IMG/VR virus record: IMGVR_UViG_3300023175_000028 | Span: 3,473 to 67,472 of that record | Reading direction: 5' to 3' (one strand) | From: a virus | Length of the DNA: 64,000 nt | Shown here: positions 1,800 through 61,815 of the stretch, in pieces | Layout: each line of letters opens with the position of its first letter | Position numbering within the stretch: the first letter of the stretch is position 1 | Made by a program: the position numbers and the translations under genes | The notes under the pieces: model-generated | The model's input: only the letters and a program-made list of their open reading frames with translations | Told to the model about the DNA's origin: nothing | Databases searched by the model: none

Positions 1800-2237
1800 T
1801 TACGGAGCGTCTACTGGATCGTCTGATTCAAAGTCGTCTGCATCTGGTGCGCCGTCAACGTTATCAATAGTTGCATCGTCACCTGCTTCTTCCATTTCAA
1901 CTGCGCCGTCAGATGTGCTGTCTGACATATTCCAAGCAATAGTTGCTCCTGTATCAAGCGTAACTTTACGTCCTGCAATTTTAGTTACTTGACGAGCAGT
2001 GCCGCCGTCGTCTTTAACTGTGATAGTCATTTCATCTGCACCTAAAGCGGCAGATGCTTTGTCTACTAAGAAACAATCCTTAGTTGTAGTACCGTCAGTT
2101 ACACGAAACTTTTTAGATCCTAACTGCTTTACGATCCATCCGTTTACTGATGCAGAACCATCATAGAATTGTACTTTGATTTCTTCGCCGCCTGCTGTAG
2201 GTGGTCCAAAATATCTTTTATTAAGTGGTCTTCCCAT
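1800..2237 (-). CDS. Hypothetical late protein with acidic C-terminus
   Basis: 145-aa ORF, AGGAGA RBS, GATAAATA late-promoter motif at 2341-2348. Confidence 0.7.
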   Translation of the reverse strand: MGRPLNKRYFGPPTAGGEEIKVQFYDGSASVNGWIVKQLGSKKFRVTDGTTTKDCFLVDKASAALGADEMTITVKDDGGTARQVTKIAGRKVTLDTGATIAWNMSDSTSDGAVEMEEAGDDATIDNVDGAPDADDFESDDPVDAP

Positions 2238-2340
2238 TTGTTTTCTCCTATATAAGTAGTCCTATCCGGGTTCTATCCGGTACGCTGTGGGTTAAACAGC
2301 ATAAGTCCGCCACATGATGCGGCTCGCTATCTGACATATG
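2238..2340 (-). promoter_or_regulatory. Structured 5' leader with three hairpins
   Basis: Stems CCGC/GCGG, GCTGT/ACAGC and CCGG/CCGG lie between the late promoter motif and the RBS; GC-rich relative to the genome. Confidence 0.5.
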
Positions 2341-2355
2341 TATTTATCAAAAGAG

Positions 2356-2390
2356 AAAAAAGGCTTACAAAGTTTCCCTTGTAAGCCTTT
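2356..2390 (-). terminator. Rho-independent terminator of the putative ncRNA
   Basis: AAAGGCTTACAA/TTGTAAGCCTTT stem followed by a T-run on the minus strand. Confidence 0.8.
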
Positions 2391-2397
2391 AATTGGA

Positions 2398-2615
2398 ATA
2401 AGCAAAATAGGGAGGATTCGGTTATACCTCCAACCCCTCGCCGCAGATACCATTCTGAAACCAGGGAGCCTGTTTCCGCTCGGTAGAGCGATGTGACACA
2501 GCGTATTTCTACTACCACGCCTGGGTACCACCCCTAAACAGCCAAGTTCGACGCTCTGGTAAACGCCTCTTCCTTGCACTATATACATTGGACCGCTAAA
2601 TCCTTTGTAGCTTAT
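2398..2615 (-). ncRNA. Putative ~218-nt structured non-coding RNA, family not recognised
   Basis: Own sigma70-type promoter and terminator; ends are complementary (AUAAGC/GCUUAU, AGGAUU/AAUCCU, CGGU/ACCG); nested stems ACCAG/CUGGU, CUGUUU/AAACAG, CGCUC/GAGCG, GCGU/ACGC; GC-rich; no ORF with a credible RBS. Confidence 0.65.
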
Positions 2616-2621
2616 GTATAC

Positions 2622-2649
2622 ACTATAACATCTTTTATAGTTATGTCAA
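2622..2649 (-). promoter_or_regulatory. Sigma70-type promoter for the putative ncRNA
   Basis: TTGACA-N16-TATAGT with a TGn extended -10; predicted start near 2615. Confidence 0.7.
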
Positions 2650-2747
2650 CCAGAAAAATACATTTTTTTTAAAAAAATGTCATTTATTTTTTTGATGTGG
2701 TGCTGTCTGATTAGTTGCTTGTAGCACCAAAGGGTATAGTTACTCAT
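2646..2747 (-). CDS. 33-aa peptide downstream of the glutamine riboswitch (MSNYTLWCYKQLIRQHHIKKINDIFLKKMYFSG)
   Basis: Strong RBS AGGAGGAG just before the ATG at 2747; stop TGA at 2648-2646; below the ORF-track size cutoff. Confidence 0.65.
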   Translation of the reverse strand: MSNYTLWCYKQLIRQHHIKKINDIFLKKMYFSG

Positions 2748-2774
2748 ACACTCCTCCTATTTAAAGGGTTAAAG

Positions 2775-2820
2775 TGCGTTCCTTCGCAATATGCTACTTC
2801 CGGCCGTTGGGCTGAACGTA
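2775..2820 (-). promoter_or_regulatory. Glutamine riboswitch (glnA RNA motif), minimal form
   Basis: UACGUUCA-GCC(CAAC)GGC-CGGAAGUA-GCA(UAU)UGC-GAAGGAACGCA: P1 CGUUC/GAACG, two short hairpins, and the GGAAGUA and GAAG E-loop strands of the glnA consensus. Confidence 0.85.
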
Positions 2821-2836
2821 ATATTATTTATCATTG

Positions 2837-2856
2837 AAAACCCGCCGAAGCGGGTT
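2837..2856 (-). terminator. Rho-independent terminator after pqqA
   Basis: AACCCGC-TTCG-GCGGGTT then TT on the minus strand (cUUCGg tetraloop). Confidence 0.8.
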
Positions 2857-2873
2857 ATTTGTAGTCTTGCGTT

Positions 2874-2945
2874 CTACTTGTTCATTACATACATTGTAAC
2901 TTCAAATCCAAAACGCATTTCTGTAAAAGTTGGTGTTGTCCACAT
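2874..2945 (-). CDS. pqqA: Coenzyme PQQ precursor peptide PqqA (MWTTPTFTEMRFGFEVTMYVMNK)
   Basis: 23-aa ORF with MW..P start and G-x-E-V-T-x-Y motif (E-x3-Y, the residues that form PQQ); RBS GAAAGGAGA; own terminator. Not in the ORF track. Confidence 0.93.
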   Translation of the reverse strand: MWTTPTFTEMRFGFEVTMYVMNK

Positions 2946-3019
2946 ATGCTTTCTCCTTTCACTTATTATTTAAACACAAATAAAAGCAAAAGTCATACGT
3001 ATAATCATTAAAAGGTCAT

Positions 3020-3049
3020 AAAAAAAGGGCAGTGTTGCCACTGCCCTTT
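3020..3049 (-). terminator. Rho-independent terminator of the major capsid gene
   Basis: AAAGGGCAGTG-GCAA-CACTGCCCTTT followed by a T-run on the minus strand. Confidence 0.85.
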
Positions 3050-3075
3050 AATTTTGTTATACTACTAAGTAGATC

Positions 3076-4236
3076 TTAGCTGAATGAAACGTTACCGTTA
3101 TCAATTCCAACAAGACCTAAGTAGTCAGCCGCGTTACCAAGTGAAGACGCAGTGTTTGACAACTCAACATAACCATAACGTGTCATAAATGATACGACTG
3201 GCTCGAATGATGATGGGTCAAGTACTGTTCCTGAGCTCATTAGCGGAATGTATGGGCAATAGAACGCTGCCGCATCTGATTCGCTTGAACCTTTGTAACC
3301 GATCAATACTGGTGCATTGTCTGCTGAGTAAGTATTAACGTATACTTTCATTGCGTTGTTTAAAGTACCAACCATCTTAGTGTTAGTAGGTGCTTCAAAT
3401 GTACCTTCAGTTGTACGAGCGAACGCTGAAGTAGTTGCTGACTGAAGAATTGTTAGCGCGAATGGCGAAACAACTGCCCAGTTACCAGCACCACGTCTTG
3501 TACGCTGTGCAATTAAGTTACTTACGCGGTTGATTTGAACTGCCAATGCGGCATGCTCGTCACCAACGAAAGTAGCTGTACCACTTACAGCCGCTTGGTC
3601 GTAAGTTTCAGCCGCTGTACCAGCAAGTGTTTGCAATGAAGCAAGTACTTCCTGATCAATTTCAGCAGTAATTTCTTGAGCAAGAGCAGCCATGATTTCT
3701 GCTTCAACATCAATACCGTGCATTGACTGAGCATCTTGTGCCGCTTCAAATGTCCAACGAGCACTCAACTTACGAGTTTTCGCTTCGACAGTTTGTTTCA
3801 AGATTTGAATTGACATTCTGTTACCAGCTTGTCCTTCAAGTGATGCAGTTGCATCTGCTTTACCGCTTGCGTTACCTGAATACGCTTCAGCAATTTTGAA
3901 TGGGCTTAGAGCCTCTTCACCTGCTGTAGCACCATTTGCTGTGTCGCTGTAACGAACACGTAGCGTATGGATCTGGCCCACAGGACCAGTCATTGGCTGT
4001 ACGCCTACCAACTCGTTAGCAATAACTGTTGGCATTACACGTCTGATCACTGGAAGGATCACACGATTTAGTGTTGCAACATTACCGGCAGAAGTAGCAC
4101 CTGCGGTTGCACTCTCTGACAAATACTTGCGTGTATTTTCAAGAGTTGTTTCCATTACCGCTTTTTTGTTACCTTGTAGGCCTTCAACAAGTGCTTGCTT
4201 AGTGTCCTGCCAGCGGCTTTCTAATAGTTCTGACAT
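3076..4236 (-). CDS. gp23: Major capsid protein, T4 gp23-like
   Basis: GVQPMTGPVGQI, KTRKLSARWTFEAAQD, EITAEIDQE, FYCPYIPL and MTRYG are gp23-family motifs. Confidence 0.96.
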   Translation of the reverse strand: MSELLESRWQDTKQALVEGLQGNKKAVMETTLENTRKYLSESATAGATSAGNVATLNRVILPVIRRVMPTVIANELVGVQPMTGPVGQIHTLRVRYSDTANGATAGEEALSPFKIAEAYSGNASGKADATASLEGQAGNRMSIQILKQTVEAKTRKLSARWTFEAAQDAQSMHGIDVEAEIMAALAQEITAEIDQEVLASLQTLAGTAAETYDQAAVSGTATFVGDEHAALAVQINRVSNLIAQRTRRGAGNWAVVSPFALTILQSATTSAFARTTEGTFEAPTNTKMVGTLNNAMKVYVNTYSADNAPVLIGYKGSSESDAAAFYCPYIPLMSSGTVLDPSSFEPVVSFMTRYGYVELSNTASSLGNAADYLGLVGIDNGNVSFS

Positions 4237-8225: not shown

Positions 8226-9977
8226 TTATATCACTTGATCTGTTGTTGGAGGTGCTGTTCCTCCAGCATCGCCGCCTGTTGCTGTTTCTGGAGGTGTTCC
8301 TTCTCCTCCGTCAACTCCGCCTTCACCGGCAGGTACTTCTTCTTCACCGGCAGCTAAGTCTGATCCCATTCCTGCTGAACTTATTCCAACGCCTCTCATT
8401 TCTGCGGCAGCGTCAGCTGAATTAGGTTCTATATCTTCGTCGTTTTCTTCTCGCCACAGTCTTTCGTTTTCTGCAATTTCTTCTGCACTCATTCCTAAGA
8501 ATCGTTTTAATGCAAATCTATTTGATACGTAAGGTATTGCACTCATTTGAGTAAATGTTGGTACACGAGCATTGTCAAGTTCTGATTGTCTATAAGCCGC
8601 AAAGTTTTGCGGAGGTTCAAAACTAATATCAAACATATTAGTATCAACATTAATGCCTTTTTCTAATAGATATCTTTTAAACTCTTGATTAAGTTCTTCA
8701 ATTAGTAGACCTTGTAAACGTTCACAGTAAGTATTAAAACGTAGTTCTTGAATATATGCAGTACCTACTCTACCATCATTGTAGGATGTTGCTCCATCAT
8801 CAGCGCCTGTAGGGAGATAGCTGGAAGGTATTCGTAAGCCGCGTACGAGCTTATTAGTAAAATATCTAAGATCATCAATTTCTCCAAGATTAGTTCCTCC
8901 TGGCAATGTTTCCACTTTTGAGCCGCGGCCTTCTGCTGTTTGTGGGAAGAAGTAATCTTCGTTGATTGACAGTGGATTATAACTCGAGTCTATGACATTC
9001 TGACCGCCACCTGTCGCGGATGGGATACGTCTTTGATGTATTTCCGTTTTAACACGCTCCACAAATTGCATAGCAAGGTGTGATGGCATGTTGCCCACAT
9101 CAACGTAGAATACTCTTCTTTCTGGAGCTCTTTGAACACGATATATAATAATCGCATCTTCAAGCAATTCTTTTTGTTTGTAAACTTTAAAAATTGTTTC
9201 TAATAATGAATTACCAAACGGAAAATTATTGTCTAAACCTTCTGATAAACTTAAATGTACAACATGCTTTGCATCAACAGCAACTTCTCCGTCGTCTAAA
9301 GTAAATCTACTTTTTCCAATGTTAGCAGTGCCGCCAACCATGCCAGTTGCTCCGCCTGTTGGAGTGTATGCTCCGCCTGTAGGTCCATTAATGTTTCCAT
9401 TAGTTTGATGAGGAGTGGTAGCTACTAAATCTTTAAAGTTAAAGTTTACATTTTTAATAATGTATTGTTCAGGCGTCTTGCCTTCACTTTCGTTAACAAT
9501 AATTCTAATAACATTAGCAGGATCAATATGAAACAGTTTTTTAGTTTCTGGATCTCTTAAGAAAAATTGATCTCCATATTTAAATGTATTTCGTAATACA
9601 CGAAACATTCTTGTATCAAAATTTTGAAGTTTAGTCCATTGTTTTAAGTATTGACCAAGAATCTGTACTTCGGCATTTGTTGATTTTTTATTAAAATTAA
9701 ATTTAAAGTTGGTTCCGTTAGAATCATTTTTTTGTGTACAAAATTCAGCAAGAATATCAAGTGCGGCATTAACTTCGCTGTCCATATCCATAGTATTGTA
9801 TTGACCGTAACGTTCAACACGATTAGGAGTACCAACATAAACATCAGGTAAAAAAGAACTATAATTTGATCTTGCAGGGCCAGCTTGAGATCCGTTGTTT
9901 GAATTACTTAATACACTATATGAACCTGCTGGGTTATCGCTTGTTCCAACTGGTGTGAAATATTTTTTCCAACTCAT
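8226..9977 (-). CDS. gp20: Portal protein, gp20-like
   Basis: LEDAIIIYRVQRAPERRVFYVDVGNMP, EDYFFP and GSKVETLPGGTNLGEIDD motifs. Confidence 0.96.
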   Translation of the reverse strand: MSWKKYFTPVGTSDNPAGSYSVLSNSNNGSQAGPARSNYSSFLPDVYVGTPNRVERYGQYNTMDMDSEVNAALDILAEFCTQKNDSNGTNFKFNFNKKSTNAEVQILGQYLKQWTKLQNFDTRMFRVLRNTFKYGDQFFLRDPETKKLFHIDPANVIRIIVNESEGKTPEQYIIKNVNFNFKDLVATTPHQTNGNINGPTGGAYTPTGGATGMVGGTANIGKSRFTLDDGEVAVDAKHVVHLSLSEGLDNNFPFGNSLLETIFKVYKQKELLEDAIIIYRVQRAPERRVFYVDVGNMPSHLAMQFVERVKTEIHQRRIPSATGGGQNVIDSSYNPLSINEDYFFPQTAEGRGSKVETLPGGTNLGEIDDLRYFTNKLVRGLRIPSSYLPTGADDGATSYNDGRVGTAYIQELRFNTYCERLQGLLIEELNQEFKRYLLEKGINVDTNMFDISFEPPQNFAAYRQSELDNARVPTFTQMSAIPYVSNRFALKRFLGMSAEEIAENERLWREENDEDIEPNSADAAAEMRGVGISSAGMGSDLAAGEEEVPAGEGGVDGGEGTPPETATGGDAGGTAPPTTDQVI

Positions 9978-9981
9978 CTTT

Positions 9982-12420
9982 TTATACCTGTCTCATTAAA
10001 TTACCACTAAGTCCGCCTAACGACCTTAATTGTTTTGAGGCAATTTTGTGACCCTTCTCGGCAATTTGAGCCATTCTGTCGTTACTATTACTTATTAATT
10101 CTGCAACTTGTTGCAGTCCGTCTTGAGTTTGTGGTGAATTCATCATACCATTTATATCTGTACCTACCTTTTCAAAAGCAGTTTTTAATCCTGTAAATGA
10201 CGCAGTTAGTTGTCTTCCTAAATCGTCACCTTGTACATTTTGCATTACACTACCTATAGCACTTGGTAATTGTTCTGTTAATTGCGCAATTTGTGGTCCT
10301 GCCGCACTAACCATATTACCTACACCTGTAGCAAGGTTCATTATTTGTTCTTCATTAAGAACTGCTTCTTTATTATGAAGCATTGTTAATGTTCCCTTAC
10401 CAAAATCTTGCATCAGTGACCCAAATGCAGGTGTCCCTCCATTAAACGATGCTCCGTTCATATTAGCAACTGTCATATTTTGTACTACAAAATCTGAACC
10501 ATCAATAAGAGCATCTAATGGTACTGCTGAAAGACCTGCCATAGACTGCTGGAAAAGGTCTTTATCAATTTGATTATTAGGATCATTTCCTTGGTTTAAC
10601 TGATCTATAATATCAAAGGCAGCATCTCTAATCTGTGTCGAACTGCCTTGTGTTAGTCTGTCATTTACAACTTCAGTTATTGTTTTGCCTTCTGCCTCAG
10701 CTACTGCCATAAACTTTTCAGCCAGTATTGGTCCAATATCAGTTCCTAAAATATGCGCTAAATCTTTTGCTTCGCCTAATTGCATACCATTTCTTGGAGC
10801 ATTTTTTAGATGATCAAGAATTTGTTGCATTGCTTGTTGAGTATTTTGTTGAACTTGAATATCATCTGGTGTAGTAGTTGGAGCTGTAGTATCTCCGCCA
10901 ACAACTAAACTTGACGCGGCATTAAATACGTCTTCTGCACTTCGTGACTCGACATTTGCGGCTGCGCCTCCTCGATTCATTCCGCCTAATTGTTCTGCTA
11001 ATGGTAGCATTGCATCACTAAGTTTTGTAAATGCTCCGTTTGGTCCAATTAGTTTATCATTAACAACAGCACCAAGATCTCTCAATGCTTTTTCACCGTT
11101 TATTACTGTTGACGTAATTCCGTCTCTATTTTCCTGTTCAGTTTGTGCGGCGGCATTTAACCTTCGTATTGCTTCTTCACGTGTAACATTTTCTCGTTGC
11201 ATTAATCGTTGAACATTATCAGAATAAGTTCCTGCCCCTGTAATTATTTGTGCGGCCGCATCAGCTGTTGCATTTCCCATACCACCTAATGTTGCCATTT
11301 GTAAAAAGTTTGGATCTCGTACTCTTGCCGCAATAGCACTGTTAAAGCTGTCAATACTGTTGGTCATTCCTTCGATGCCTCCAGGACCTTGTGCGTAATT
11401 GACCATATTTTGTAAATCGTTAAATGCTGGTCCAAGTGCTACTGCCGCTTGTCTACCTTCTTCAGATACAACAGCACCTTTGGTGAATAGATCTTCTACA
11501 GCTGCCAATGCTCCAGGGCCGGCTTTTTCTGCTTCAGCAAGAGCTCTACGCATTTTATCAGCGGCTTCTTTGTTACCGCTTGCTTCAAGCATACGTATCT
11601 TAGCGTCAACTTGTCCTTTACGCATACGGTCTTGTATTTCTTTTTCCATCTCTTTGCGGTTTTTACCAGTAAGTTTTGCAATTTTATCCATTTCGGTACT
11701 CATTGCAATCATATTTTTTGCCGCAGTGCCGTTGCGCATTTCTTCTTCCGTGTATCGACGTCTGTTGCTTATCATGTATTCTGCTAAGTCTTCGTTAACT
11801 TCTTCAAACGTCATACCCATGTTTAGTAATGGTGTTGCAAGTCCTTGATCAAACATATTTTGACTTGCCATTGTAAACTGTTTAGCACCTTGCGTTACTG
11901 TGCCACCAAAGGCTGCAAATCCTTGAGTATTACTTGATACGATGCCAGCAAATTCGTCTAAAGTTAGTCTTGACTGTGCCGCTGAGTTTTTCATTTCTAA
12001 TATGTTATTATTAAATGACGCACCACTTGTTGATAGTGTTCTAAATGTGTCAACGCCAGTTTCAGCAGCCTTAATAAGGGCACCGCCACCTTCAGTAACC
12101 ATTTGTCCAAACATTTTTAGATTTTTGTTATCGCCAGCAAGCTCGCTACCAAATGCTCCTACAATGTTTGTTAATGAAGTGTACGAATCAGATATTCTGG
12201 CATTACTACCAAAAACAGTTGATCCAAATTTTGCAACTTCTTTAGTAGCAGTTAAAGAGGCGGCGGTAAAATCCATTTGATTTTTACCAGCTTCGTCGCC
12301 ACTTTTACCAAGATTGTCAAGACCTTGTTGAACACCACTGAAGTCAAGATTAAGTCCTCTAAGGGTACTATCCTGTGCTACGTTTTCTAAGGCGTCTATT
12401 GCCTTTTGTGTAAGTTCCAA
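9982..12420 (-). CDS. Tape-measure / baseplate hub (gp29-like) protein
   Basis: 812 aa, Ala/Gly/Gln/Met-rich and helical-looking; adjacent to the gp26-like gene; LHNKEAVLN motif near the C-terminus. Confidence 0.65.
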   Translation of the reverse strand: MELTQKAIDALENVAQDSTLRGLNLDFSGVQQGLDNLGKSGDEAGKNQMDFTAASLTATKEVAKFGSTVFGSNARISDSYTSLTNIVGAFGSELAGDNKNLKMFGQMVTEGGGALIKAAETGVDTFRTLSTSGASFNNNILEMKNSAAQSRLTLDEFAGIVSSNTQGFAAFGGTVTQGAKQFTMASQNMFDQGLATPLLNMGMTFEEVNEDLAEYMISNRRRYTEEEMRNGTAAKNMIAMSTEMDKIAKLTGKNRKEMEKEIQDRMRKGQVDAKIRMLEASGNKEAADKMRRALAEAEKAGPGALAAVEDLFTKGAVVSEEGRQAAVALGPAFNDLQNMVNYAQGPGGIEGMTNSIDSFNSAIAARVRDPNFLQMATLGGMGNATADAAAQIITGAGTYSDNVQRLMQRENVTREEAIRRLNAAAQTEQENRDGITSTVINGEKALRDLGAVVNDKLIGPNGAFTKLSDAMLPLAEQLGGMNRGGAAANVESRSAEDVFNAASSLVVGGDTTAPTTTPDDIQVQQNTQQAMQQILDHLKNAPRNGMQLGEAKDLAHILGTDIGPILAEKFMAVAEAEGKTITEVVNDRLTQGSSTQIRDAAFDIIDQLNQGNDPNNQIDKDLFQQSMAGLSAVPLDALIDGSDFVVQNMTVANMNGASFNGGTPAFGSLMQDFGKGTLTMLHNKEAVLNEEQIMNLATGVGNMVSAAGPQIAQLTEQLPSAIGSVMQNVQGDDLGRQLTASFTGLKTAFEKVGTDINGMMNSPQTQDGLQQVAELISNSNDRMAQIAEKGHKIASKQLRSLGGLSGNLMRQV

Positions 12421-18581: not shown

Positions 18582-19403
18582 TTACTTGCCTTCTTTTTCT
18601 CGCTTCATTGCGGCTTCCCATTCGCCTTGATGCTGTCTTGTATAACTTGGAGATAAGTCATTCATTTCAAGGATGTCGTCTCTAATGTTTTGATTGCGTT
18701 TTTCAATGTTGATAATACGTACAAATGAGTTTGTAACTGCCGCTGTGTAGTAAGCAAACGGGTTGTTTGATTTAGATTCATCAAATTGCAAACCGATTTG
18801 AGCAAGTTGTAGTATTGCTTGTCCTCGCATTTCGTCATTATAGGTATATCCTCTCACATTTCCTCGTGTTGCGTATCTTTCACACAGTTTCATCCACATT
18901 TTTGCAAGTTCATTAGTTGCTTTACCTGCTTTTGGATTAAATGCTCCATTTTCCATGCCGCCTTCCCAGTGACTTTTTCCTACAAGCACTAATTCTCCTT
19001 CTTCATTAAATTTATAGTGTTGAAAAGGCGGAAAATTTAGTTTTACTTTGGTGTCTGCAACGGTTTTTGGATTCTTTTTACGTCCTGGCTCATCTGGAAT
19101 ATGGTCAAACGTCATAATACGGAAGATTAGCTCTTCTTTTGTAATCTTTGTGTATGGAATTTCACAATCTGCTTGTTTTACTTTTTCGCCATTGGCTTTT
19201 CTGGTTGCATAATCTGCTTGTGAAAGTCTTTTTGCTTTGTTTCTTTTTGCTTCTGCAATAGTTCTAATGTTAATTTTTTTAACATCGTCTAAAATAATAT
19301 CAAATTGATGATAATCAGGATCAACAAAACTGCAAAATGAGCTCTTAGATTTGTGTATCTCGGCTAAGAGGTCTTTGTTGTTCAAATAGTTTATTTTTCT
19401 CAT
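18582..19403 (-). CDS. gp55: Late-transcription sigma factor, gp55-like
   Basis: NYLNNKDL, GYTYNDEM, FDESKSNNPFAYYT and FVRIINIEK motifs; next to gp47 as in T4-like genomes. Confidence 0.88.
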   Translation of the reverse strand: MRKINYLNNKDLLAEIHKSKSSFCSFVDPDYHQFDIILDDVKKINIRTIAEAKRNKAKRLSQADYATRKANGEKVKQADCEIPYTKITKEELIFRIMTFDHIPDEPGRKKNPKTVADTKVKLNFPPFQHYKFNEEGELVLVGKSHWEGGMENGAFNPKAGKATNELAKMWMKLCERYATRGNVRGYTYNDEMRGQAILQLAQIGLQFDESKSNNPFAYYTAAVTNSFVRIINIEKRNQNIRDDILEMNDLSPSYTRQHQGEWEAAMKREKEGK

Positions 19404-19425
19404 AATTTCTCCATAATACTCGTAT

Positions 19426-19454
19426 ATTATAATATACGTACATTAAAAAGTCAA
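19426..19454 (-). promoter_or_regulatory. Sigma70-type promoter for gp55 overlapped by an 18-bp palindrome
   Basis: TTGACT-N17-TATAAT; perfect palindrome CGTATATTATAATATACG at 19421-19438. Confidence 0.75.
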
Positions 19455-19482
19455 CTAAATAATAACACAGGAGAAGAAAAAA

Positions 19483-20247
19483 ATGTCATTTTTAGAAAAC
19501 GTAGTTCAAAAAGTTGGTAACAACATAACAAATAACATAAAGCGTGAAATTGAAGACACCAATTTTGGCCGCGCACTAAGAATGGTTGGTATCTTAGACG
19601 GCGCCGAGCCTCAAGACAATAATTTTTCAGTAGCACGAGCGTTTGATCAAAATTCAAAAGGTGACTGGCGTGTAAGACTGTCTTTACCTCCAACAGGAAC
19701 ATTTAAAAGTAGTAATGTTTTAAATCCTTTACTTGAAACCAACGGCTTAGTTTTTCCATATACTCCGAGCGTGTTTGTTACTCATAGTGCAAATTATAAC
19801 CAATTGCAACCGACTCATAGTAATTATCCCTTCCACATTTATTCTGGATCACAAGTGGATCAGTTTACAATTACAGGAGATTTTACAGTTGAAAATGCAA
19901 AAGAAGCAGAATATTGGGTTGCCGCAATTCACTATTTAAGATCTGTAACAAAAATGGCATATGGTGAAAGTTCTAACAAAGGCTCACCACCTCCAGTACT
20001 AAAATTAAACGGATACGGTTCTTTTGTGTTTAATAATATTCCGGTTGTTGTACAAAACTTTAACGTAACATTACCTAACGATGTAGATTATATTCCAACC
20101 AGAATGGCAGGCGAAGCATATGCTCCAACCAGATCAGAAATTGCAGTAGCTCTTGTTCCACAATACAGCAGAGATAAAGTTAATAAATTTAGTCTTGATA
20201 AATTTGTTGACGGCGGCTACATTGGAACAGGACAAGGATACTTATAA
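19483..20247 (+). CDS. Baseplate / tail-tube initiator protein (gp48/gp54-like)
   Basis: LVFPYTP and PPPVLKLNGYG motifs; first gene of the baseplate block; CTAAATA motif at 19455-19461. Confidence 0.65.
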   Translation: MSFLENVVQKVGNNITNNIKREIEDTNFGRALRMVGILDGAEPQDNNFSVARAFDQNSKGDWRVRLSLPPTGTFKSSNVLNPLLETNGLVFPYTPSVFVTHSANYNQLQPTHSNYPFHIYSGSQVDQFTITGDFTVENAKEAEYWVAAIHYLRSVTKMAYGESSNKGSPPPVLKLNGYGSFVFNNIPVVVQNFNVTLPNDVDYIPTRMAGEAYAPTRSEIAVALVPQYSRDKVNKFSLDKFVDGGYIGTGQGYL

Positions 20248-28700: not shown

Positions 28701-29174
28701 CCAGTTAAGTACAAAGTACTATTTGGAAATAAGGCGTCTACAGATTTGCAAGCTACATTTAAAGTTGTTAAAAACCCAGACTTAGTGTTAAACGATAACG
28801 AAATTAAATCAGAAGTTATCAGTGCAATTAATAAATTCTTTGCATTAGATAATTGGGACTTTGGAGAAAGATTCTACTTTAGCGAATTATCAACATATGT
28901 AATGAATCAACTGGCGCCAAAAGTTGTTACTTTTGTAATTGTTCCGGTACAAGAAGATCAAACATATGGTTCTTTACAAGAAATTAAATCTGAATCAGAT
29001 GAAATTTTTATCAGCGGTGCAACAGTGCAGGATATTGAAATGATTGATGCTATTACAGCAGGAAGATTAAAGGCATCAGGTGCCTTAACTACAGGAATAG
29101 AAAATTCTACTACTGGAATACAGAGTAGTACATCTATTATTAGTACAGACAACAGTGGAGGTCTTAGTTACTAA
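25719..29174 (+). CDS. gp6: Baseplate wedge subunit, gp6-like
   Basis: DFDNLR, ENYLELAERRESVLRLARLLSY and QNRMVTGEDY; follows gp25. Confidence 0.85.
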   Translation: MSSTDRQNRLLLAEDWKRIYQSFRNADFKSYDFDNLRRTMISYLRENYPEDFNDYIESSEYLALIDMIAFLGQNIAFRIDLNARENYLELAERRESVLRLARLLSYNAKRNRAANGLLRIEAVSTTEELTDSNNINLENQTIQWNDPSNPDWYEQFIRVINASLPVNGTYGRPIKKGTVNGIPTEQYRMNSTNTDVPAYSFTKTVDGKSVPFEIVSTDINDGSIAEEAPFPGNNFAFLYREDGRGVASSNTGFFAHFRQGKMDQGQFNVSNPSTSQVVAIDARNINETDVWLYKLDSLGNEQELWSKVDTVEGNNVIYNSLNKNIRNIYSVLTRIEDRISLIFSDGVFGNLPQGNFRVFYRTSKNQRLIITPDNLKGIAVRIPYISRAGKTETVTLTFALKYTVDNSSISESNASIKRNAPSTYYTQNRMVTGEDYQLGPLTVSQEIVKAKSVNRTSSGISRFFDLVDATGKYSTTNLFGTDGAVYKDYLSIKNSFTFDNLTDIEGQIVNTVQPILSSINIRNYYYDQFPKILIEDLGATWVPLSSDTNYFTGRLENAAGVLVKVGTFTGSNMKFVKANSLLKFVPRDGYHFLNGKEEPGEPDYRGGTNYKWVKVVSVIGDGTEQQLDGTGPILFNDEIPANSKLVEIRTALPSTLTDDVQSQVTNQIFAYKTFGLRYSRNDGEWRVITENNLDASGNFSTGKTGDTTNQQLDASWLLKFNTDGEKYTITHRAMRYVFESDKDIRFYYDSSDKIFNNKTGKIVKDKINVLNINTKPDSSEPFNLDYTWEIVEEYRDAEGYVDSKKIQVSFFDDDSDGVVDNPEIFDDIVDETTNPIDKVVVQKKITTTDGVEDYVYIDKNSINLKILETKESLGALSAYDDQTVFYYIKEDIFEVLNGTTSTLSITTDYKANIGRDGLKFQYIHAADQNSRIDPSASNIIDTYLLTRGYDTEFRKWIDDAIAEKPLPPSSDTLYLTYASDLNKIKSLSDEVIYHPVKYKVLFGNKASTDLQATFKVVKNPDLVLNDNEIKSEVISAINKFFALDNWDFGERFYFSELSTYVMNQLAPKVVTFVIVPVQEDQTYGSLQEIKSESDEIFISGATVQDIEMIDAITAGRLKASGALTTGIENSTTGIQSSTSIISTDNSGGLSY

Positions 29175-32100
29175 TGGCTTATAATGATGATCAAAAACCG
29201 CAAAATTTACCAGCAGGAAACACTACTCCTCGTAGAAAAAGTGCTGATCACTTACCTCGATATTTTAGAACAAATGTAAACAATAAGTTTTTATCGGCTA
29301 CAGTTGATCAATTAATTCAGCCTGGTGTTGCTGAAAAACTAAACGGATATTATGGTCAAAAAAATGCTAAAGGATACCAAAAAGGCGACTTTTATATAGG
29401 TGATGTTTCTAAATCAAGAGAAGATTATCAACTTGAGCCAGTATCACTTGTTAAAGACGATCTTAATAATATAGATTTTTATGCAGATTATAACGATTAT
29501 ATTAATCAATTAAATTCGTTAGGATCTGCAATTGATGATCATAGTGTTTTAAATAGACAAGAATATTATGCATGGAATCCACATATTGATTGGGATAAAT
29601 TTGTAAATTTTCGAGAATATTATTGGCTACCTAATGGTCCGCAAACTATACAAATTGCTGGAGAAACTGACGAGGTAACTAAAACATATCAAGTAACCAG
29701 TGTTAACAACGGTGAACATTATGGATATGTATTCAATCCAGACGGTCAAACTCAAAATCCAACATTAACGTTATATAGAGGTGTTACTTATAGATTTGAA
29801 ATTGATGCATCAGGAAATCCGCTATCTTTTAGAACAAGAAAAGAAACAGCACCAATATTTAGACCAAACATAAGTTATTTTAGAGGAGACAAAGTACAAT
29901 ATGAAGGCTCAATATATTTGTGTACTGATAATCACAATGCAGGTAATGAGCTTGACATAGAATTTTGGGATTTAGACACTACATTTAATTTAACTACTAA
30001 TGTTTCTGCACAAAGTATTGATAATGGAGTTATTGAATTAACTTTAGATGCAAGTACGCCTAATTTAATTTACTATATGTCAGATAATGATGTATTTGCC
30101 AGTGGAACAATTAATGTATTAGACTTAGTAGAAGCATCGTCTATTAATGTTGAACAAGAAATTTTAAAATTAAAAACTTATACTACAGGAACTGGAGTAT
30201 CGTTGTCAAATGGTATGAAAGTAGAATTTGTAGGAAATGTAACACCTGAAAAGTATGCAGAAGGTGCATGGTATGTAGAAGGAGTAGGTTCTGAAATTGA
30301 TTTAATATCAGAAGTTGATTTAAGTACACCGAGTGCATATACTGATGATATAGAAATAGGATTTGATAATGACGAAAACGGCTTTGGAGTTTTACCGTTT
30401 TCCGAAGCAGTTGGATATCCATTAAACAAAGATTACCTTACTATAAACAGAGGAAGTCGAGACGGAAACTTATGGTCTAAATATAATAGATGGTTTCACA
30501 AAGATGTTATTGAAAAATCAGCAGAAGCAAACAAACAAGTATCTAACATTGATCAAAGTCAACGTGCAACACGACCTATTATTGAGTTTAACGCTAATTT
30601 AAAATTATATAATTTTGGAACTAAAAGAAAACTAACAATAGACTTAGTTGACTCTTTTACTAAAGATGTTTTTAGTACTATTGAAGGCTCTGTAGGTTAT
30701 AATATTGACGATGTTGATGTTACTAACGGAATGAGAATTCTGTTTACAGCAGATCCAGATCCACGAGTTTACGGAAAAATATTTGAAGTTAAATTTATAA
30801 CTTTCCAAAACAAGAGACAAATTACATTACAAGAAACTGAAGACACAGACCCATTACTTAACGAAGTATTATTATGTAATCAAGGTACTGTTAATAGAGG
30901 TAGAATGTTATGGTTCGATGGAAGTGTTTGGAAATTAGCACAACAAAAAACTGAGATTAACCAAGCACCTCTTTTTGACGTGTTTGACGAAAACGGAAAT
31001 AGTTATTCAGATACAGAAGTATTTGATTCTACAACATTTGCTGGAACAAAAATATTTTCTTATGCACAAGGGTATGGAGCAAATGATACAGAGTTAGGAT
31101 TTCCGTTAGAATACAGATCAATAGAAAATGTAGGCGATATAGTTTTTAAATTTAACTTACTTGATGATGTTATTAATTGTGCTTATATTGGTGAAGATGT
31201 AATAACTAAACCTTTGTCAGTTGGATATATTAGACAATATCCTAAAAGAAATACTTGGAAAACATTAAGTGGTTGGACTAAGGCAAGTTTATTAAGTAAT
31301 CAGCCCGTCATTAGACAATATATTAATGATAACACAAGAACATTTTTTACACTTGATGTTTATGAAAATAGTGCTTTGTTAGATGACTTATGGTTAAGAG
31401 TTTTTGTTAACAATAATTTAAAATTTGAAAATACAGATTTTACTATAGGATCAGACAATAATAATAATTTAACAATTACATTTAACTATGAATTATCTGA
31501 AGGTGATGTAATTATTCTTAAAACAAGATCGTCTGCGGAAAAAACACAATACGGCAAATATGAAATTGCAAGTAATTTAGAACGAAATCCGTTAAACCAA
31601 GATATTACAGAATTTACATTAGGTGAAGTTAACGACCATGTTGGTACTATTATAGAAGAATTGACTACGTTTTCAGGAGTGTATCCTGGATTTAGTAACC
31701 TAAGAGATTTAGGCGAAGTGTCTCAATATGGTAAAAGAATTGTAAAACATTCGTGTCCAATAAATTTACCTTTATATCATATAGTTGATAAAGAAGCTAA
31801 TATAGTTAAATCATTAAAATTTGCACGTAGAGAATACGGAAAATTTAAAAGATCCTTTTTACAAAAAGCAAATGATCTTGGATTTAGCGGCCCTGTTAAA
31901 GATCATGTTGATTTAATTTTAAACGAATTAACAAAAGATAAAATAAAAACAATGCCGTTTTATTTTAGTGATATGGTTCCTTTTACAGGATCTGTAAGAT
32001 CAACAACAGAAGTTTTAGATGAAGAAAATAACTTCTTTGCATTAAACAAAATTTATAATTTTTCACAACCAAGTTCAGATGCAGTACAAGTGTATCTTAA

Positions 32101-51920: not shown

Positions 51921-51949
51921 TTGACATAGCCTACCTATTCATGTATAAT
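51921..51949 (+). promoter_or_regulatory. Consensus sigma70 promoter for the modification cluster
   Basis: Exact TTGACA-N17-TATAAT. Confidence 0.85.
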
Positions 51950-51972
51950 ATACAAAAGAATAGAGGTTTCTT

Positions 51973-61009: not shown

Positions 61010-61790
61010 ATGGCCGCAAGCCCCTGTAGAGGTTCCTGAGTATTATACTGATAAAGAGCTGTTAACTTATAAATGGTTAACGTTGTTTGATCACGATAAC
61101 CCTAATGTCCTTACTAATAAATTTTCGTCAGGTGACACATACGAATTGTTTCAACAAAATCTACAAACACAGCCTGAAGATTGGCACTATAGAACTAAAA
61201 AAGTTGAATACATAGTAAATTCTAAAGGATACCGAGCACCAGAATTTGATAATATACCTTGGAGAGATTCTATAGTTGTATTTGGGTGTTCAATGACTGC
61301 TGGTATTGGAGTAGCAGAAGATGAAACAATTACTCACTATCTAAGTAAAAAAGCAGATCGGCCTGTTATTAATTTAGGTGTTCCAGGCGCGGCATTAGAC
61401 TTTACATTAACTAATAATTATCTATTAAGAAAAAATTATCCTAAGCCGTGGGCAGTTATTAATTTGTTTACAAATACACACCGACTAACACGTTACAAAA
61501 AAATGCATCCAGAGTTTTTAGGATTATGGTCTAAAGATGATCCGTATTGGTCTGGATTTTTTGAAAACGAATATAATCCTATTATGTCAGCAATGTTCAA
61601 GATAGATCAAATTAAATGGATGTGGAGTAGTACAAAAACTTTTAATGCATCGTATTTTGATGATGCGGCATACTACGGAAAATGCCACAAATTAGAGTTT
61701 GGTAATACTGCAAGAGATTTAACACATTGCGGCCGTCTTGACAATAAAAGAAATGCTTCTTTAATTTGGTCATACTTACGAAACACTTGA
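61002..61790 (+). CDS. SGNH/GDSL-like hypothetical protein
   Basis: NSKGYR, FGCSMTAG, NLGVPG and ARDLTHCG; likely start is the ATG at 61002. Confidence 0.55.
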   Translation: MHEWPQAPVEVPEYYTDKELLTYKWLTLFDHDNPNVLTNKFSSGDTYELFQQNLQTQPEDWHYRTKKVEYIVNSKGYRAPEFDNIPWRDSIVVFGCSMTAGIGVAEDETITHYLSKKADRPVINLGVPGAALDFTLTNNYLLRKNYPKPWAVINLFTNTHRLTRYKKMHPEFLGLWSKDDPYWSGFFENEYNPIMSAMFKIDQIKWMWSSTKTFNASYFDDAAYYGKCHKLEFGNTARDLTHCGRLDNKRNASLIWSYLRNT

Positions 61791-61815
61791 CAAAAATAAG
61801 GAAAGATGTTAAAGT
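61787..61815 (+). promoter_or_regulatory. Internal sigma70-type promoter
   Basis: TTGACA-N17-TAAAGT with TGn; the ATG at 61822 lies about 7 nt downstream. Confidence 0.6.

What the first reader, a model, noticed from the sequence alone, without database searches (positions are those of the whole stretch)
2238..3050. Compact cassette of small transcription units behind the capsid gene
Seen: about 810 bp with no long ORF hold, all on the minus strand, pqqA with its terminator, a glutamine riboswitch with a peptide ORF, a promoter-and-terminator-bounded RNA, and a structured leader. Each has its own promoter motif. Inference: a host-takeover island linking cofactor supply (PQQ), nitrogen sensing (Gln) and an RNA effector, invisible to gene callers with a size cutoff.
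Basis: partly seen in the sequence, partly recalled or inferred. Interest (0 to 1): 0.85.

Follow-up and report, generated by a model that had tools for sequence, protein, structure and literature searches.

The report
Small-gene cargo slot behind capsid gene
Between the capsid gene and the next late gene of an uncultured giant phage lies a 0.8-kb slot holding four separate small units (a PQQ-precursor peptide gene, a glutamine riboswitch with a tiny peptide gene, a free-standing manA-type RNA gene and a structured leader); all are known kinds, and related phages swap them in and out.

Summary
All elements lie on the minus strand of 2238-3050:
- pqqA (2945-2874), which passes both curated HMM cut-offs.
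- A glutamine riboswitch (RF01739, 2820-2773) followed by a Shine-Dalgarno (SD) site and a 33-codon ORF.
- An RNA bounded by a sigma70-type promoter and a terminator. It is a manA-family RNA (RF01745, 2607-2401; 49.6 bits, below the gathering score of 55.2).
- The freshwater-2 leader (RF02980, 2324-2235) of the 145-aa gene after the capsid gene.

The window is a fragment of a jumbo phage with a gp23-type capsid protein.

In relatives, freshwater-2 plus the 145-aa gene is the fixed core (55 of 80 loci, single copy). The stretch between the capsid gene and this leader is a variable slot. It is empty in 17 of 56 loci and otherwise holds unrelated ORFs or the same small modules in several orders and orientations. 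So this is a modular cargo hotspot, not one integrated island, although the window's exact order recurs in at least five other contigs.

New points:
- manA is here an autonomous gene with its own promoter and terminator.
- The riboswitch drives a conserved 27-41-aa "WC" micropeptide (92 of 92 viral hits), which is also present but unannotated in phage Melnitz.
- Viral pqqA forms its own lineage.

The parts
3076..4236 (-). Major capsid protein gene (gp23-type, 386 aa). It forms the upstream border of the slot.
   Evidence: Pfam Gp23 PF07068 at 335.9 bits and phrog_138. About 69% nt identity to capsid genes of 350-kb jumbo phages.
3024..3049 (-). Intrinsic terminator of the capsid gene. The hairpin is symmetric and was flagged on both strands.
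   Evidence: 11-bp stem with a T run. Folding energy -20.7 kcal/mol, z -6.3.
2966..2974 (-). Late-type box TTTAAATAA, 21 nt before the pqqA ATG. Inferred promoter.
   Evidence: The box class is 9-fold denser in non-coding DNA of the window. The same GTTTAAATAAT box precedes pqqA in L081, L136, L023, L138, L139 and L133.
2874..2945 (-). pqqA, the 23-codon PQQ precursor peptide gene. AGGAG lies at 2957-2953.
   Evidence: The viral-lineage C-terminus [VI]MNK is shared with 9 of 9 other viral copies and with phage Venkman.
2839..2856 (-). GC hairpin (UUCG loop) after pqqA. It is a weak terminator or 3' stabiliser, and the next promoter-like box abuts it.
   Evidence: The same hairpin follows pqqA in L081 and L136 with a longer T run.
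2824..2832 (-). Late-type box GATAAATAA, ending 3 nt before the Rfam aptamer match and 5 nt before its first paired base. Inferred promoter.
   Evidence: A (C/G)(T/A)TAAATA box stands at this place in 9 of 9 aligned riboswitch loci. Enrichment is shown.
2773..2820 (-). Glutamine riboswitch aptamer (glnA type, RF01739).
   Evidence: 47.5 bits against a gathering score of 35. Homologs score 43-55 bits in L007, L008, L021, L036, L038, L048 and L081.
2748..2772 (-). Expression platform. The aptamer's 3' tail GCACUU(U) pairs with (G/A)AGUG, which overlaps the SD AGGAGGAG (2758-2751).
   Evidence: The helix appears in the centroid fold of 5 of 5 leaders folded. This matches the RBS-masking model for gifB (PMC6212724, passages).
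2646..2747 (-). 33-codon ORF for a basic micropeptide with the motif M-x-x-[YF]-x-x-W-C-[YFW]. Its stop TGA lies inside the -35 box of the next unit.
   Evidence: In 92 of 92 viral pattern hits there is an in-frame ATG with an SD; these give 46 distinct peptides. A homolog follows the Melnitz riboswitch.
2622..2649 (-). Sigma70-type promoter of the manA unit: an A-tract, GGTTGACA, a 16-nt spacer and TG-TATAGT.
   Evidence: It is conserved in 9 of 9 aligned units. The pattern has 27 matches in 1.36 Mb, and 25 loci carry it in this slot.
2401..2607 (-). manA-family structured RNA. The predicted transcript runs from about 2614 to 2353, roughly 260 nt.
   Evidence: RF01745 at 49.6 bits over model positions 1-192. 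It is 92% identical to copies that reach the gathering score. Of 35 consensus pairs, 26 show compensatory change.
2359..2390 (-). Intrinsic terminator of the manA unit.
   Evidence: 14-bp stem with a T run; -19.7 kcal/mol, z -5.7. The hairpin sequence differs between relatives but the structure is kept, and it forms in the MFE of 17 of 17 units folded.
2340..2348 (-). Late-type box GATAAATAC in front of the leader. Inferred late promoter of the 145-aa gene.
   Evidence: TAAATA lies 18-44 nt upstream of the leader's TTATGC anchor in 56 of 56 loci; the consensus is GATAAATAC.
2235..2324 (-). freshwater-2 RNA (RF02980). It is the three-hairpin 5' leader, including the SD and ATG, of the 145-aa gene.
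   Evidence: 70.7 bits. It hits at gathering score in 31 of 60 relatives scanned and by nhmmer in 55 of 80. Covariation is seen in hairpins 2 and 3. It is single-copy in five records of 98-210 kb.
1800..2237 (-). Conserved 145-aa late gene (p145), the downstream border of the slot. Its function is unknown.
   Evidence: Synteny capsid gene - slot - p145 - 426-aa gene. 1318 metagenome homologs at E <= 0.001; no source name other than 'hypothetical protein' among the 120 listed. Beta-rich model with an acidic disordered tail, pLDDT 77. It is like uncharacterised jumbo-phage proteins.

Best explanation
The interval is the variable cargo slot between two conserved late genes of a clade of uncultured aquatic jumbo phages. 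The two genes are the gp23-type capsid gene and a 145-aa gene with a freshwater-2 leader. In this phage the slot holds three self-contained accessory modules in front of the fixed leader.

(a) pqqA. The module is a TAAATA box, an SD site, 23 codons and a hairpin. The inferred role is extra precursor peptide for the host's PqqBCDE enzymes. That would raise PQQ supply for PQQ-dependent (methanol or alcohol) dehydrogenases during infection.

(b) A glutamine riboswitch that masks the SD site of a 33-aa basic 'WC' micropeptide gene. The inferred mode is a translational ON switch at high glutamine. The peptide's target is unknown.

(c) A manA-family RNA made as its own roughly 260-nt transcript. It starts at a near-consensus sigma70 promoter, so it is probably read early by host RNA polymerase, and it ends at a strong intrinsic terminator. 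It therefore most likely acts in trans, not as a 5' UTR.

After these modules a TAAATA box (a T4-late-type promoter, inferred) starts the mRNA of the 145-aa gene. Its three-hairpin freshwater-2 leader is gene-specific.

The junctions between modules are composite hairpin-plus-promoter sequences. Modules are gained, lost, reordered and inverted among relatives, and they also occur in unrelated phages of streamlined aquatic bacteria.

Shown: the identity of the elements, their structures, their conservation and their assortment. Inferred: promoter classes, timing, ligand response, PQQ effect, host.
For: Identities.

Fixed core:
- freshwater-2 occurs in 55 of 80 relatives. Of the 25 without it, 23 have at most 524 nt after the capsid gene, L078 is a fold-back assembly, and only L034 truly lacks it.
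- It is always next to the p145 ATG and occurs once per record in 5 of 5 large records.

Variable slot:
- The gap is 75-132 nt in 17 of 56 loci and 311-1978 nt in the rest, which carry ORFs of 63-576 aa or the RNA modules.
- At gathering score only three Rfam families hit 60 relatives (571.8 kb). All hits lie in this slot on the capsid strand: freshwater-2 31, manA 5, Glutamine 7.
- manA is present in 21 of 58 complete loci and needs at least 12 changes on the capsid tree, 7 of them forced by well-supported branches. The riboswitch (6 loci) and pqqA (5 loci) each need 3 changes.
- Observed orders are pqqA>Gln>manA, Gln>pqqA(>manA), Gln>manA, pqqA(reverse)>manA, manA alone and Gln alone.

Autonomy of manA:
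- The promoter is conserved in 9 of 9 aligned units. Its pattern is almost confined to this slot (25 loci; 27 matches in 1.36 Mb).
- The terminators differ in sequence but are kept in structure, in 17 of 17 units folded.
- The late box and leader follow even where manA is absent.
- manA occurs at most once per record, and only here, in 5 large records.
- RNA-library contigs of 3 runs cover 2332-2572. This is compatible with transcription but is not proof.

Riboswitch platform: the masking helix appears in 5 of 5 folds, and the aptamer-to-ATG spacing is 22-26 nt in 10 of 10 loci.

Micropeptide: 92 of 92 pattern hits, of which 32 have no clade-type capsid gene in the fetched DNA, plus Melnitz.

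pqqA lineage: viral copies are 83-93% nt identical and carry the MNK tail. Bacterial copies are 58-74% identical and carry the NR tail.

Late box: 11 in 3.1 kb of non-coding DNA against 24 in 60.9 kb of coding DNA; the shuffle mean is 3.2.
Against: - No transcript ends were measured. The sequencing runs are held as contigs, which cannot show starts, ends or strand.
- The TAAATA box is a promoter only by analogy to the T4 late promoter TATAAATA (established knowledge). No late sigma factor was looked for, and the record is only 17% complete.
- Linkage is not nil. The riboswitch unit has no terminator of its own and is followed by manA in 28 of 34 complete loci and in 6 of 6 loci of the capsid-based sample. 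Late transcripts may therefore run riboswitch-peptide-manA as one RNA.
- The window's full order recurs in at least 5 contigs.
- In Mosig and L013 manA sits directly before an ORF, like a 5' UTR.
- The window's manA copy is below Rfam's gathering score.
- The host and its PQQ pathway are unknown. The record has no PqqD or PQQ-enzyme match, but it is a fragment.
Confidence: 0.7

Rival explanations
1. Integrated host-takeover island. pqqA, the glutamine switch and the RNA are functionally coupled and selected as one unit, linking cofactor supply, nitrogen sensing and an RNA effector.
For: - All three lie within 0.7 kb on one strand.
- The same order occurs in L149, L199, L150, L182 and L188, whose capsid proteins are 87-91% identical.
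- The riboswitch is followed by manA in 28 of 34 complete loci.
Against: - Every sub-combination exists, as do both orders and both orientations of pqqA.
- The slot is empty in 17 of 56 loci.
- Each module also occurs alone in unrelated phages: pqqA in Venkman and other Methylophilales phages, manA in Mosig, and the riboswitch plus peptide in Melnitz.
- Promoter types differ between modules.
- The only test of coupling had 2-3 independent pairs and therefore no power.
Confidence: 0.12
2. manA plus its terminator is a ligand-sensing transcription attenuator (a riboswitch) that gates read-through from the sigma70 promoter into the 145-aa gene. On this view it is cis-regulatory, as Rfam types the family.
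For: - The promoter-aptamer-terminator-gene layout fits. When present, manA is the last module, ending about 65-105 nt before the leader, in 8 of the 9 relatives first detected.
- Weinberg 2010 lists manA as a riboswitch candidate in 5' UTRs (PMC2864571, passages).
- In Mosig, manA lies 23 nt before an ORF with no terminator between.
Against: - The terminator is separated from the fold by 4-25 unpaired nt and forms in the MFE of 17 of 17 units. Its sequence changes freely while the manA 3' end is conserved, so no alternative pairing is apparent.
- A conserved promoter-like box lies between the terminator and the leader, and it is present in 56 of 56 loci with or without manA.
- In L025 a tRNA-Gly follows manA after 5 nt.
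- manA RNAs self-assemble into decamers and 60-mers in vitro (bioRxiv 10.64898/2026.07.01.735769, passages).
Confidence: 0.12
3. The glutamine aptamer controls a neighbouring RNA or gene rather than the 33-codon ORF, which would then be fortuitous. The neighbour could be manA or pqqA downstream, or, as proposed for Melnitz, a tmRNA.
For: - The Melnitz paper reads its riboswitch as controlling ssrA or downstream genes (PMC9004378, passages).
- There is no terminator between the ORF and manA.
- The peptide has no family match.
- Codon-position variation is only mildly skewed, at 8/11/16.
Against: - An SD site and ATG stand at a fixed 22-26 nt after the aptamer in 10 of 10 loci.
- The SD-masking helix is conserved.
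- An ORF of 27-41 aa with the same motif occurs in 92 of 92 hits, giving 46 distinct peptides in two phage groups.
- In L021 and L048 a different ORF takes the same place.
- What lies further downstream varies: manA, pqqA or the leader.
Confidence: 0.08

Closest known systems
Hyperplastic regions and PeSL (promoter-early stem-loop) cassettes of T4-like phages (PMC4122927, abstract read; PMC2839356, search listing only)
   Same: Variable small genes sit between conserved core genes. Composite terminator/promoter sequences lie at module borders. Content is swapped among close relatives.
   Different: - Most border boxes here are of the late (TAAATA) type, not early promoters.
- The cargo is mainly RNA elements and micropeptide genes.
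- Recombination at the borders was not tested.
- The phage is a jumbo phage, not a Tquatrovirinae member.
Glutamine riboswitch upstream of gifB/IF17 and of short DUF4278 ORFs in cyanobacteria (PMC6212724, passages)
   Same: A glnA-type aptamer stands directly before a very short ORF. Yfr6 of Prochlorococcus also has 33 codons. An RBS-masking helix is proposed to open on glutamine binding, giving an ON switch.
   Different: - The peptide here has no DUF4278 or other Pfam match at E <= 1.
- It is phage-borne.
- The reported host of the related Melnitz module lacks glutamine synthesis (PMC9004378), so inhibition of glutamine synthetase is not an obvious role.
Melnitz / Mosig riboswitch and manA loci (PMC9004378; records MZ577097 and MT647606)
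   Same: - The aptamer is homologous (52.8 bits) and is followed by a homologous 32-aa WC peptide ORF in Melnitz.
- Mosig has a homologous manA RNA (64.0 bits) with a TTGACA/TATATT promoter.
   Different: - In those T4-like myophages the elements lie in the replication-gene region, not behind the capsid gene.
- Melnitz's riboswitch abuts a two-piece tmRNA.
- Mosig's manA has no terminator and directly precedes a rubrerythrin gene.
- The peptide and manA are not annotated in those records.
manA RNA motif RF01745 (Weinberg 2010, PMC2864571; cryo-EM preprint 10.64898/2026.07.01.735769)
   Same: - The fold is supported by covariation.
- The loop-loop complementarity UGGU/ACCG is kept and covaries: G-C in 8 sequences, A-U in 10. 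It may correspond to the L5-L7' kissing loop of the preprint. That mapping is my inference, because the figures were not visible.
   Different: The family is described as a 5'-UTR element and riboswitch candidate. Here it is a promoter- and terminator-bounded gene. The window's copy scores below the gathering score.
Viral pqqA as an auxiliary metabolic gene (Lake Baikal viromes, PMC7678222, passages)
   Same: A phage-borne PqqA is proposed to boost PQQ-dependent methanol oxidation in methylotroph hosts.
   Different: - Here pqqA stands alone as a mini-module in a jumbo phage.
- Together with unannotated copies in isolated Methylophilales phages it belongs to a distinct viral lineage.
- No viral methanol dehydrogenase was seen in this 67-kb fragment.
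ncRNA cluster of cyanophage S-CREM1 (PMC9964418, Table 4 seen)
   Same: wcaG, manA and abiF RNAs lie within about 820 bp (9745-10567), which is another compact phage cluster of small RNA elements that includes manA.
   Different: The partner elements, the phage group and the genome location all differ. I did not read its sequence.

Membership tests
PqqA (PF08042 / TIGR02107) | Score above the curated HMM cut-offs | tested here: met
   42.3 bits against a cut-off of 21.1, and 45.2 bits against 20. 42.8 bits in the six-frame search of the record.
PqqA (PF08042 / TIGR02107) | Conserved Glu-x-x-x-Tyr from which PQQ is built (established knowledge) | tested here: met
   The peptide ends ...FGFEVTMYVMNK, so E and Y are spaced as required.
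PqqA (PF08042 / TIGR02107) | Works with PqqB-E, usually as the first gene of that operon | tested here: inconclusive
   There is no PqqD match in the 67-kb record, but the record is 17% complete. The enzymes would have to be the host's.
Glutamine riboswitch RF01739 | Covariance-model score at or above the gathering score | tested here: met
   47.5 bits against 35, over model positions 1-53.
Glutamine riboswitch RF01739 | Sits in a 5' leader with an expression platform | tested here: met
   The SD and ATG lie 25 nt downstream. The SD-masking helix appears in 5 of 5 folds.
Glutamine riboswitch RF01739 | Selective glutamine binding | not testable with these tools
   This needs in-line probing or ITC.
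Glutamine riboswitch RF01739 | Downstream gene in nitrogen metabolism or of the DUF4278 (IF17-like) family | tested here: not met
   The 33-aa peptide has no Pfam family at E <= 1. This is a usual association, not part of the RNA family's definition.
manA RNA RF01745 | Covariance-model score at or above the gathering score | tested here: inconclusive
   The window's copy scores 49.6 against 55.2, but full length and with E 2.5e-11. It is 92% identical to the L013, L021 and L048 copies, which score 55.5-56.4. L036 scores 79.9, L069 78.6 and Mosig 64.0.
manA RNA RF01745 | Conserved multi-stem fold with covariation | tested here: met
   Over 20 sequences there are 35 consensus pairs, 26 of them with compensatory change. 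These include the closing helix (columns 32-36 with 219-223), which I take to be Rfam's pseudoknot.
manA RNA RF01745 | Located in the 5' UTR of a gene (typed Cis-reg) | tested here: not met
   A strong terminator follows, and a separate promoter-like box precedes the next gene. I therefore file it as a homolog of the family that is used differently.
freshwater-2 RNA RF02980 | Covariance-model score at or above the gathering score | tested here: met
   70.7 bits against 49.9.
freshwater-2 RNA RF02980 | Hairpins supported by covariation, ending in the SD and start codon | tested here: met
   Hairpins 2 and 3 have 10 pairs, 5 with compensatory change, over 47 sequences. For hairpin 1, covariation is visible in the alignment but MAFFT did not align it well.
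PeSL-type modular shuffling | Composite terminator/promoter motifs at the borders of variable modules between core genes | tested here: inconclusive
   Hairpin-plus-box junctions lie at 2856-2824 and 2390-2340 and in relatives. Recombination at these junctions was not tested, and the boxes are of the late type.

The most novel reading that the evidence does not exclude
manA is not a riboswitch here. It is a free-standing phage gene, read from one of the strongest host-type promoters in the region, and its roughly 260-nt product acts in trans as a self-assembling multimeric RNA particle. The loop-loop complementarity that could build such assemblies is conserved and covaries. A recent preprint shows manA RNAs forming decamers and a 60-mer cage in vitro. 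If so, a clade of jumbo phages, and perhaps pelagiphages and cyanophages, would deploy an RNA nanostructure during infection. This would re-class an 'orphan riboswitch' as a structural or sequestering RNA in the manner of ROOL and GOLLD.
Probability: 0.25. Interest if true: 0.85.

Novelty: new variant of a known kind. Interest (0 to 1): 0.55.

Why it matters
Every element belongs to a described family, so nothing here is categorically new. The locus does settle or sharpen several open points.
1. It gives freshwater-2, an Rfam motif known only from metagenomes, a concrete home. It is the single-copy leader of the gene after the capsid gene in a large clade of uncultured jumbo phages, directly behind a conserved late-type box.
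2. It shows manA, long listed as a riboswitch candidate, as an autonomous gene bounded by a promoter and a terminator in over twenty phage contigs. This fits the recent finding that manA RNAs self-assemble and makes a trans function testable.
3. It identifies a conserved 27-41-aa micropeptide as the likely regulated product of phage glutamine riboswitches. This includes Melnitz, where the published reading is control of a tmRNA.
4. It shows that pqqA circulates among aquatic phages as its own lineage and is missed by annotation.
5. It is a clean example of how size cut-offs in gene calling hide phage cargo.

Tried and rejected
- tRNA or tmRNA identity of the bounded RNA: ARAGORN found none in the window.
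- The 98-aa and 63-aa mechanical ORFs across manA as real genes: rejected. The frame is not kept in relatives, where the longest sense ORF is 17-85 aa in 22 relatives.
- Function of the 145-aa protein:
  - No Pfam family above cut-off, and no NCBIfam or PHROG family.
  - 1318 homologs at E <= 0.001; no source name other than 'hypothetical protein' among the 120 listed.
  - AF2 model with pLDDT 77.
  - Foldseek against PDB gave nothing at E <= 0.001, only weak tandem-Tudor-like rows.
  - BFVD gave only uncharacterised phage proteins, including Atu_ph07.
- Micropeptide family: no Pfam or PHROG family; the only NCBIfam row is far below cut-off (13.3 against 50 bits). The protein atlas gave no usable hit. 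A link to IF17/DUF4278 is not supported.
- Host identification from pqqA:
  - The peptide core occurs in 47 bacterial stretches, mostly Burkholderiales or 'beta proteobacterium' MAGs, at only 58-74% nt identity. No donor or host can be named.
  - The 80-87% nt likeness to pqqA of Methylophilales phages is a hint of a methylotroph host, no more.
- PQQ pathway or PQQ enzymes in the record: none found, but the record is a 17% fragment.
- Generic promoter scan: not above chance (4 found, 3.4 expected).
- Test of riboswitch-manA coupling by independent pairs: only 2-3 pairs, so no power.
- RNA libraries:
  - In three RNA-library contig sets the stretch 2657-3091 (peptide ORF, riboswitch, pqqA) had next to no cover, while a DNA run covered it.
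Contigs also cannot rank expression.
- freshwater-2 in print: a full-text search for 'freshwater-2' returned 14 papers; the 10 listed are all unrelated. The word 'freshwater' does not occur in the main text of PMC5737381.
- Viral pqqA in print: two searches. I read passages only of the Lake Baikal paper, which reports a viral PqqA. Another listed paper (PMC13188868) holds 'pqqA', 'phage' and 'auxiliary metabolic' but was not opened.

Full report
**What the window is.** The window is bases 3473-67472 of a 67,472-bp IMG/VR virus record that CheckV rates 17% complete. ORF 4236-3076 (minus strand) is a gp23-type major capsid protein: Pfam Gp23 at 335.9 bits, and phrog_138. Its DNA is about 69% identical to the capsid genes of 310-370-kb jumbo phages such as Vibrio phage 2.275.O, Yersinia fHe-Yen9-04 and Escherichia PBECO4. 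It matched 96 phage records, and none covers 80% of the 2.6-kb query. The phage is therefore an uncultured jumbo phage. Public runs that hold the stretch are labelled salt marsh metagenome.

**The observation.** Reading the minus strand from 3050 down to 2235, the order is as follows.
- The capsid gene's terminator lies at 3049-3024.
- pqqA lies at 2945-2874 and has 23 codons. It scores 42.3 bits against Pfam (cut-off 21.1) and 45.2 bits against TIGR02107 (cut-off 20).
- A GC hairpin lies at 2856-2839.
- The glutamine riboswitch RF01739 lies at 2820-2773, at 47.5 bits against a gathering score of 35.
- AGGAGGAG and a 33-codon ORF follow at 2747-2646.
- A TTGACA-16-TG-TATAGT promoter lies at 2649-2622.
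- A structured RNA lies at 2607-2401. It aligns over the whole manA model RF01745 at 49.6 bits, below the gathering score of 55.2, with E 2.5e-11 for 1.5 kb.
- A 14-bp terminator lies at 2390-2359.
- freshwater-2 RF02980 lies at 2324-2235, at 70.7 bits against 49.9. Its last bases are the SD and ATG of a 145-aa ORF at 2237-1800.

The 'bounded RNA' and the 'structured leader' both have Rfam names. These are the only two gathering-level Rfam hits in the 64 kb. The mechanical 98-aa ORF across manA is not conserved.

**Relatives.** A capsid-protein search of IMG/VR found 599 stretches that encode a relative. The best 80 were kept (83-92% aa identity), each oriented with the capsid gene on the plus strand. 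The synteny capsid gene - gap - 145-aa gene - 426-aa gene is conserved.
- Rfam gathering scans of 60 of the 80 loci (571.8 kb) hit only three families: freshwater-2 in 31 loci, manA in 5 and Glutamine in 7. Every hit lies on the capsid strand just downstream of the capsid gene.
- With nhmmer profiles, freshwater-2 is found in 55 of the 80 loci.
- Of the 25 loci without it, 23 have at most 524 nt after the capsid gene. L078 is a fold-back assembly, and only L034 truly lacks it.
- The motif is single-copy in each of five records of 98-210 kb.
- In 56 of 56 loci a TAAATA box (consensus GATAAATAC) lies 18-44 nt upstream of the motif's TTATGC anchor.

freshwater-2 is therefore the gene-specific 5' leader of the gene after the capsid gene. 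Hairpins 2 and 3 covary.

**The slot.** The distance from the capsid stop to the leader is 75-132 nt in 17 of 56 loci (55 relatives plus the window). In the rest it is 311-1978 nt, filled with unrelated ORFs of 63-576 aa or with the small modules.
- On a capsid-gene tree of 58 complete loci, manA (21 loci) needs at least 12 gains or losses, 7 of them forced by well-supported branches.
- The riboswitch (6 loci) needs 3 changes and pqqA (5 loci) needs 3.
- L138 and L139 have identical capsid genes, yet only L138 gives a manA hit.
- pqqA occurs before the riboswitch (window, L149, L199), after it (L081, L136, L192, L196, L214), on the opposite strand (L023/L024), or without the riboswitch (L138, L139).
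- It also lies behind a capsid gene that is only 33% identical (L140).

Two qualifications apply. Among 34 complete riboswitch-bearing clade loci from a pattern scan, 28 have manA after the riboswitch (26 as Gln>manA and 2 as pqqA>Gln>manA), 5 have pqqA without manA, and 1 has neither. The window's full order also recurs in at least five contigs. The one formal coupling test had only 2-3 independent pairs.

**The manA unit.** An alignment of nine units shows four features:
- an A-tract, an invariant GGTTGAC, a 16-18-nt spacer and an extended -10 (TGnTATAnT in 8 of 9);
- the RNA itself;
- a hairpin whose sequence differs between relatives but whose structure and T run are kept;
- the GATAAATAC box.

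The promoter pattern has 27 matches in 1.36 Mb of loci (both strands), and 25 loci carry it in this slot. Of these 25, 22 drive a manA-like RNA, two contigs end just after the promoter, and one (L049) drives an ORF. Divergent copies give sub-threshold, full-length Rfam hits of 29.7-46.3 bits.

Over 20 sequences, including Mosig, RNAalifold finds 35 pairs, 26 of them with compensatory change. A four-base loop-loop pairing (columns 85-88 with 137-140) is kept and covaries: G-C in 8 sequences and A-U in 10.

The terminator forms independently in the MFE of 17 of 17 units. There are four exceptions to the standard layout.
- L025 has a tRNA-Gly 5 nt after manA.
- L034 has no terminator.
- L013 has a 356-aa ORF after manA.
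- Mosig has a rubrerythrin gene 23 nt after manA.

In five large records manA occurs at most once, and only at this slot. RNA-library contigs from three runs cover 2332-2572. This is compatible with transcription, but contigs prove neither ends nor strand.

The literature frames the question. Weinberg 2010 lists manA as a 5'-UTR riboswitch candidate of marine metagenomes and cyanophages. A 2026 preprint reports that manA RNAs form decamers and a 60-mer cage through kissing loops. The gene-like layout here favours a trans-acting RNA.

**The riboswitch unit.** In 9 of 9 aligned loci the aptamer is preceded by a terminator hairpin and a (C/G)(T/A)TAAATA box that ends a few nt before the aptamer. 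The SD and ATG follow at 22-26 nt in 10 of 10 loci. In 5 of 5 leaders folded, the aptamer's 3' tail pairs with the SD region. This is the arrangement proposed for the ON switch of gifB (PMC6212724).

The ORF encodes a basic peptide with the motif M-x-x-[YF]-x-x-W-C-[YFW]. L021 and L048 carry a different 50-aa ORF in the same place. A viral scan for the aptamer core, followed 25-50 nt later by TGGTGYT, returned 92 stretches. All 92 have an in-frame ATG with an SD. They give 46 distinct peptides, nearly all of 27-41 aa; the few shorter ones are cut off by contig ends. Sixty stretches lie next to a clade-type capsid gene and 32 do not.

Melnitz, an OM43 myophage, has the same peptide ORF right after its riboswitch. 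Its record instead annotates a CDS on the other strand, and the paper reads the switch as controlling a tmRNA. The unit has no terminator of its own, and in the window the ORF's stop codon lies inside the manA -35 box. The peptide has no family match.

**pqqA.** The module is a GTTTAAATAAT box, an SD site, 23 codons and a hairpin, and it is conserved as a block between the window, L081/L136 and L023. Nine other viral copies and the Venkman copy end in [VI]MNK. The nine are 83-93% nt identical to the window's copy. Forty-seven bacterial stretches with the same core end in NR and are 58-74% identical.

Isolated Methylophilales phages carry pqqA unannotated. A viral PqqA was reported from Lake Baikal viromes. 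The record holds one pqqA and no PqqD or PQQ-enzyme match. A methylotroph host is a reasonable guess, not a result.

**Promoter classes.** The box [GCT][ACT]TAAATA[ACT] occurs 11 times in 3.1 kb of non-coding DNA and 24 times in 60.9 kb of coding DNA of the window. That is 1.78 against 0.20 per kb-strand. The shuffle mean is 3.2 with sd 1.7, and the maximum in 500 shuffles was 11. Three of these boxes stand before pqqA, the riboswitch and the leader. The likeness to the T4 late promoter TATAAATA is established knowledge. Its use here is inference.

**Verdict.** The region is a modular cargo slot whose parts are members or variants of known families. The points of most interest are manA as an autonomous gene and the riboswitch-controlled micropeptide.

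Noticed in passing
L133, L134/L135, L137, L138/L139 (about 65 nt upstream of pqqA): Other viral pqqA copies carry a conserved nested-hairpin leader between the promoter-like box and the SD site, with apparent compensatory changes. The window, L081/L136 and L023 lack it. It may be an undescribed cis element of phage pqqA.
   Followed up: no
L082 (Melnitz MZ577097) 2571-2669 plus strand: An unannotated 32-codon ORF homologous to the window's micropeptide follows the Melnitz glutamine riboswitch. The record annotates a CDS on the opposite strand there.
   Followed up: partly
L025:5834-6121: A manA-like RNA is followed after 5 nt by tRNA-Gly (tcc) instead of a terminator, which suggests co-transcription.
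   Followed up: partly
L216: About 9.7 kb lies between manA and the freshwater-2 leader, so the slot can take a large insertion.
   Followed up: no
L140:5957-7462: pqqA also lies just downstream of a capsid gene that is only 33% identical to the window's. A distant phage lineage therefore uses the same position.
   Followed up: no
window 29174-44764 (+): A single ORF of 5196 aa, a giant protein typical of jumbo phages. It was not analysed.
   Followed up: no
window 19403-19483, 51921-51950 and 61787-61815: Further near-consensus sigma70-type promoters, one of them a divergent pair. The phage evidently uses host-type promoters elsewhere as well.
   Followed up: no
L078: The contig continues after the capsid gene into that gene's own reverse complement. 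This is probably a fold-back assembly artefact.
   Followed up: partly
L169, L213: The order is pqqA>riboswitch, then about 400 nt before the leader with no manA hit. This stretch may hold a divergent or different RNA.
   Followed up: no
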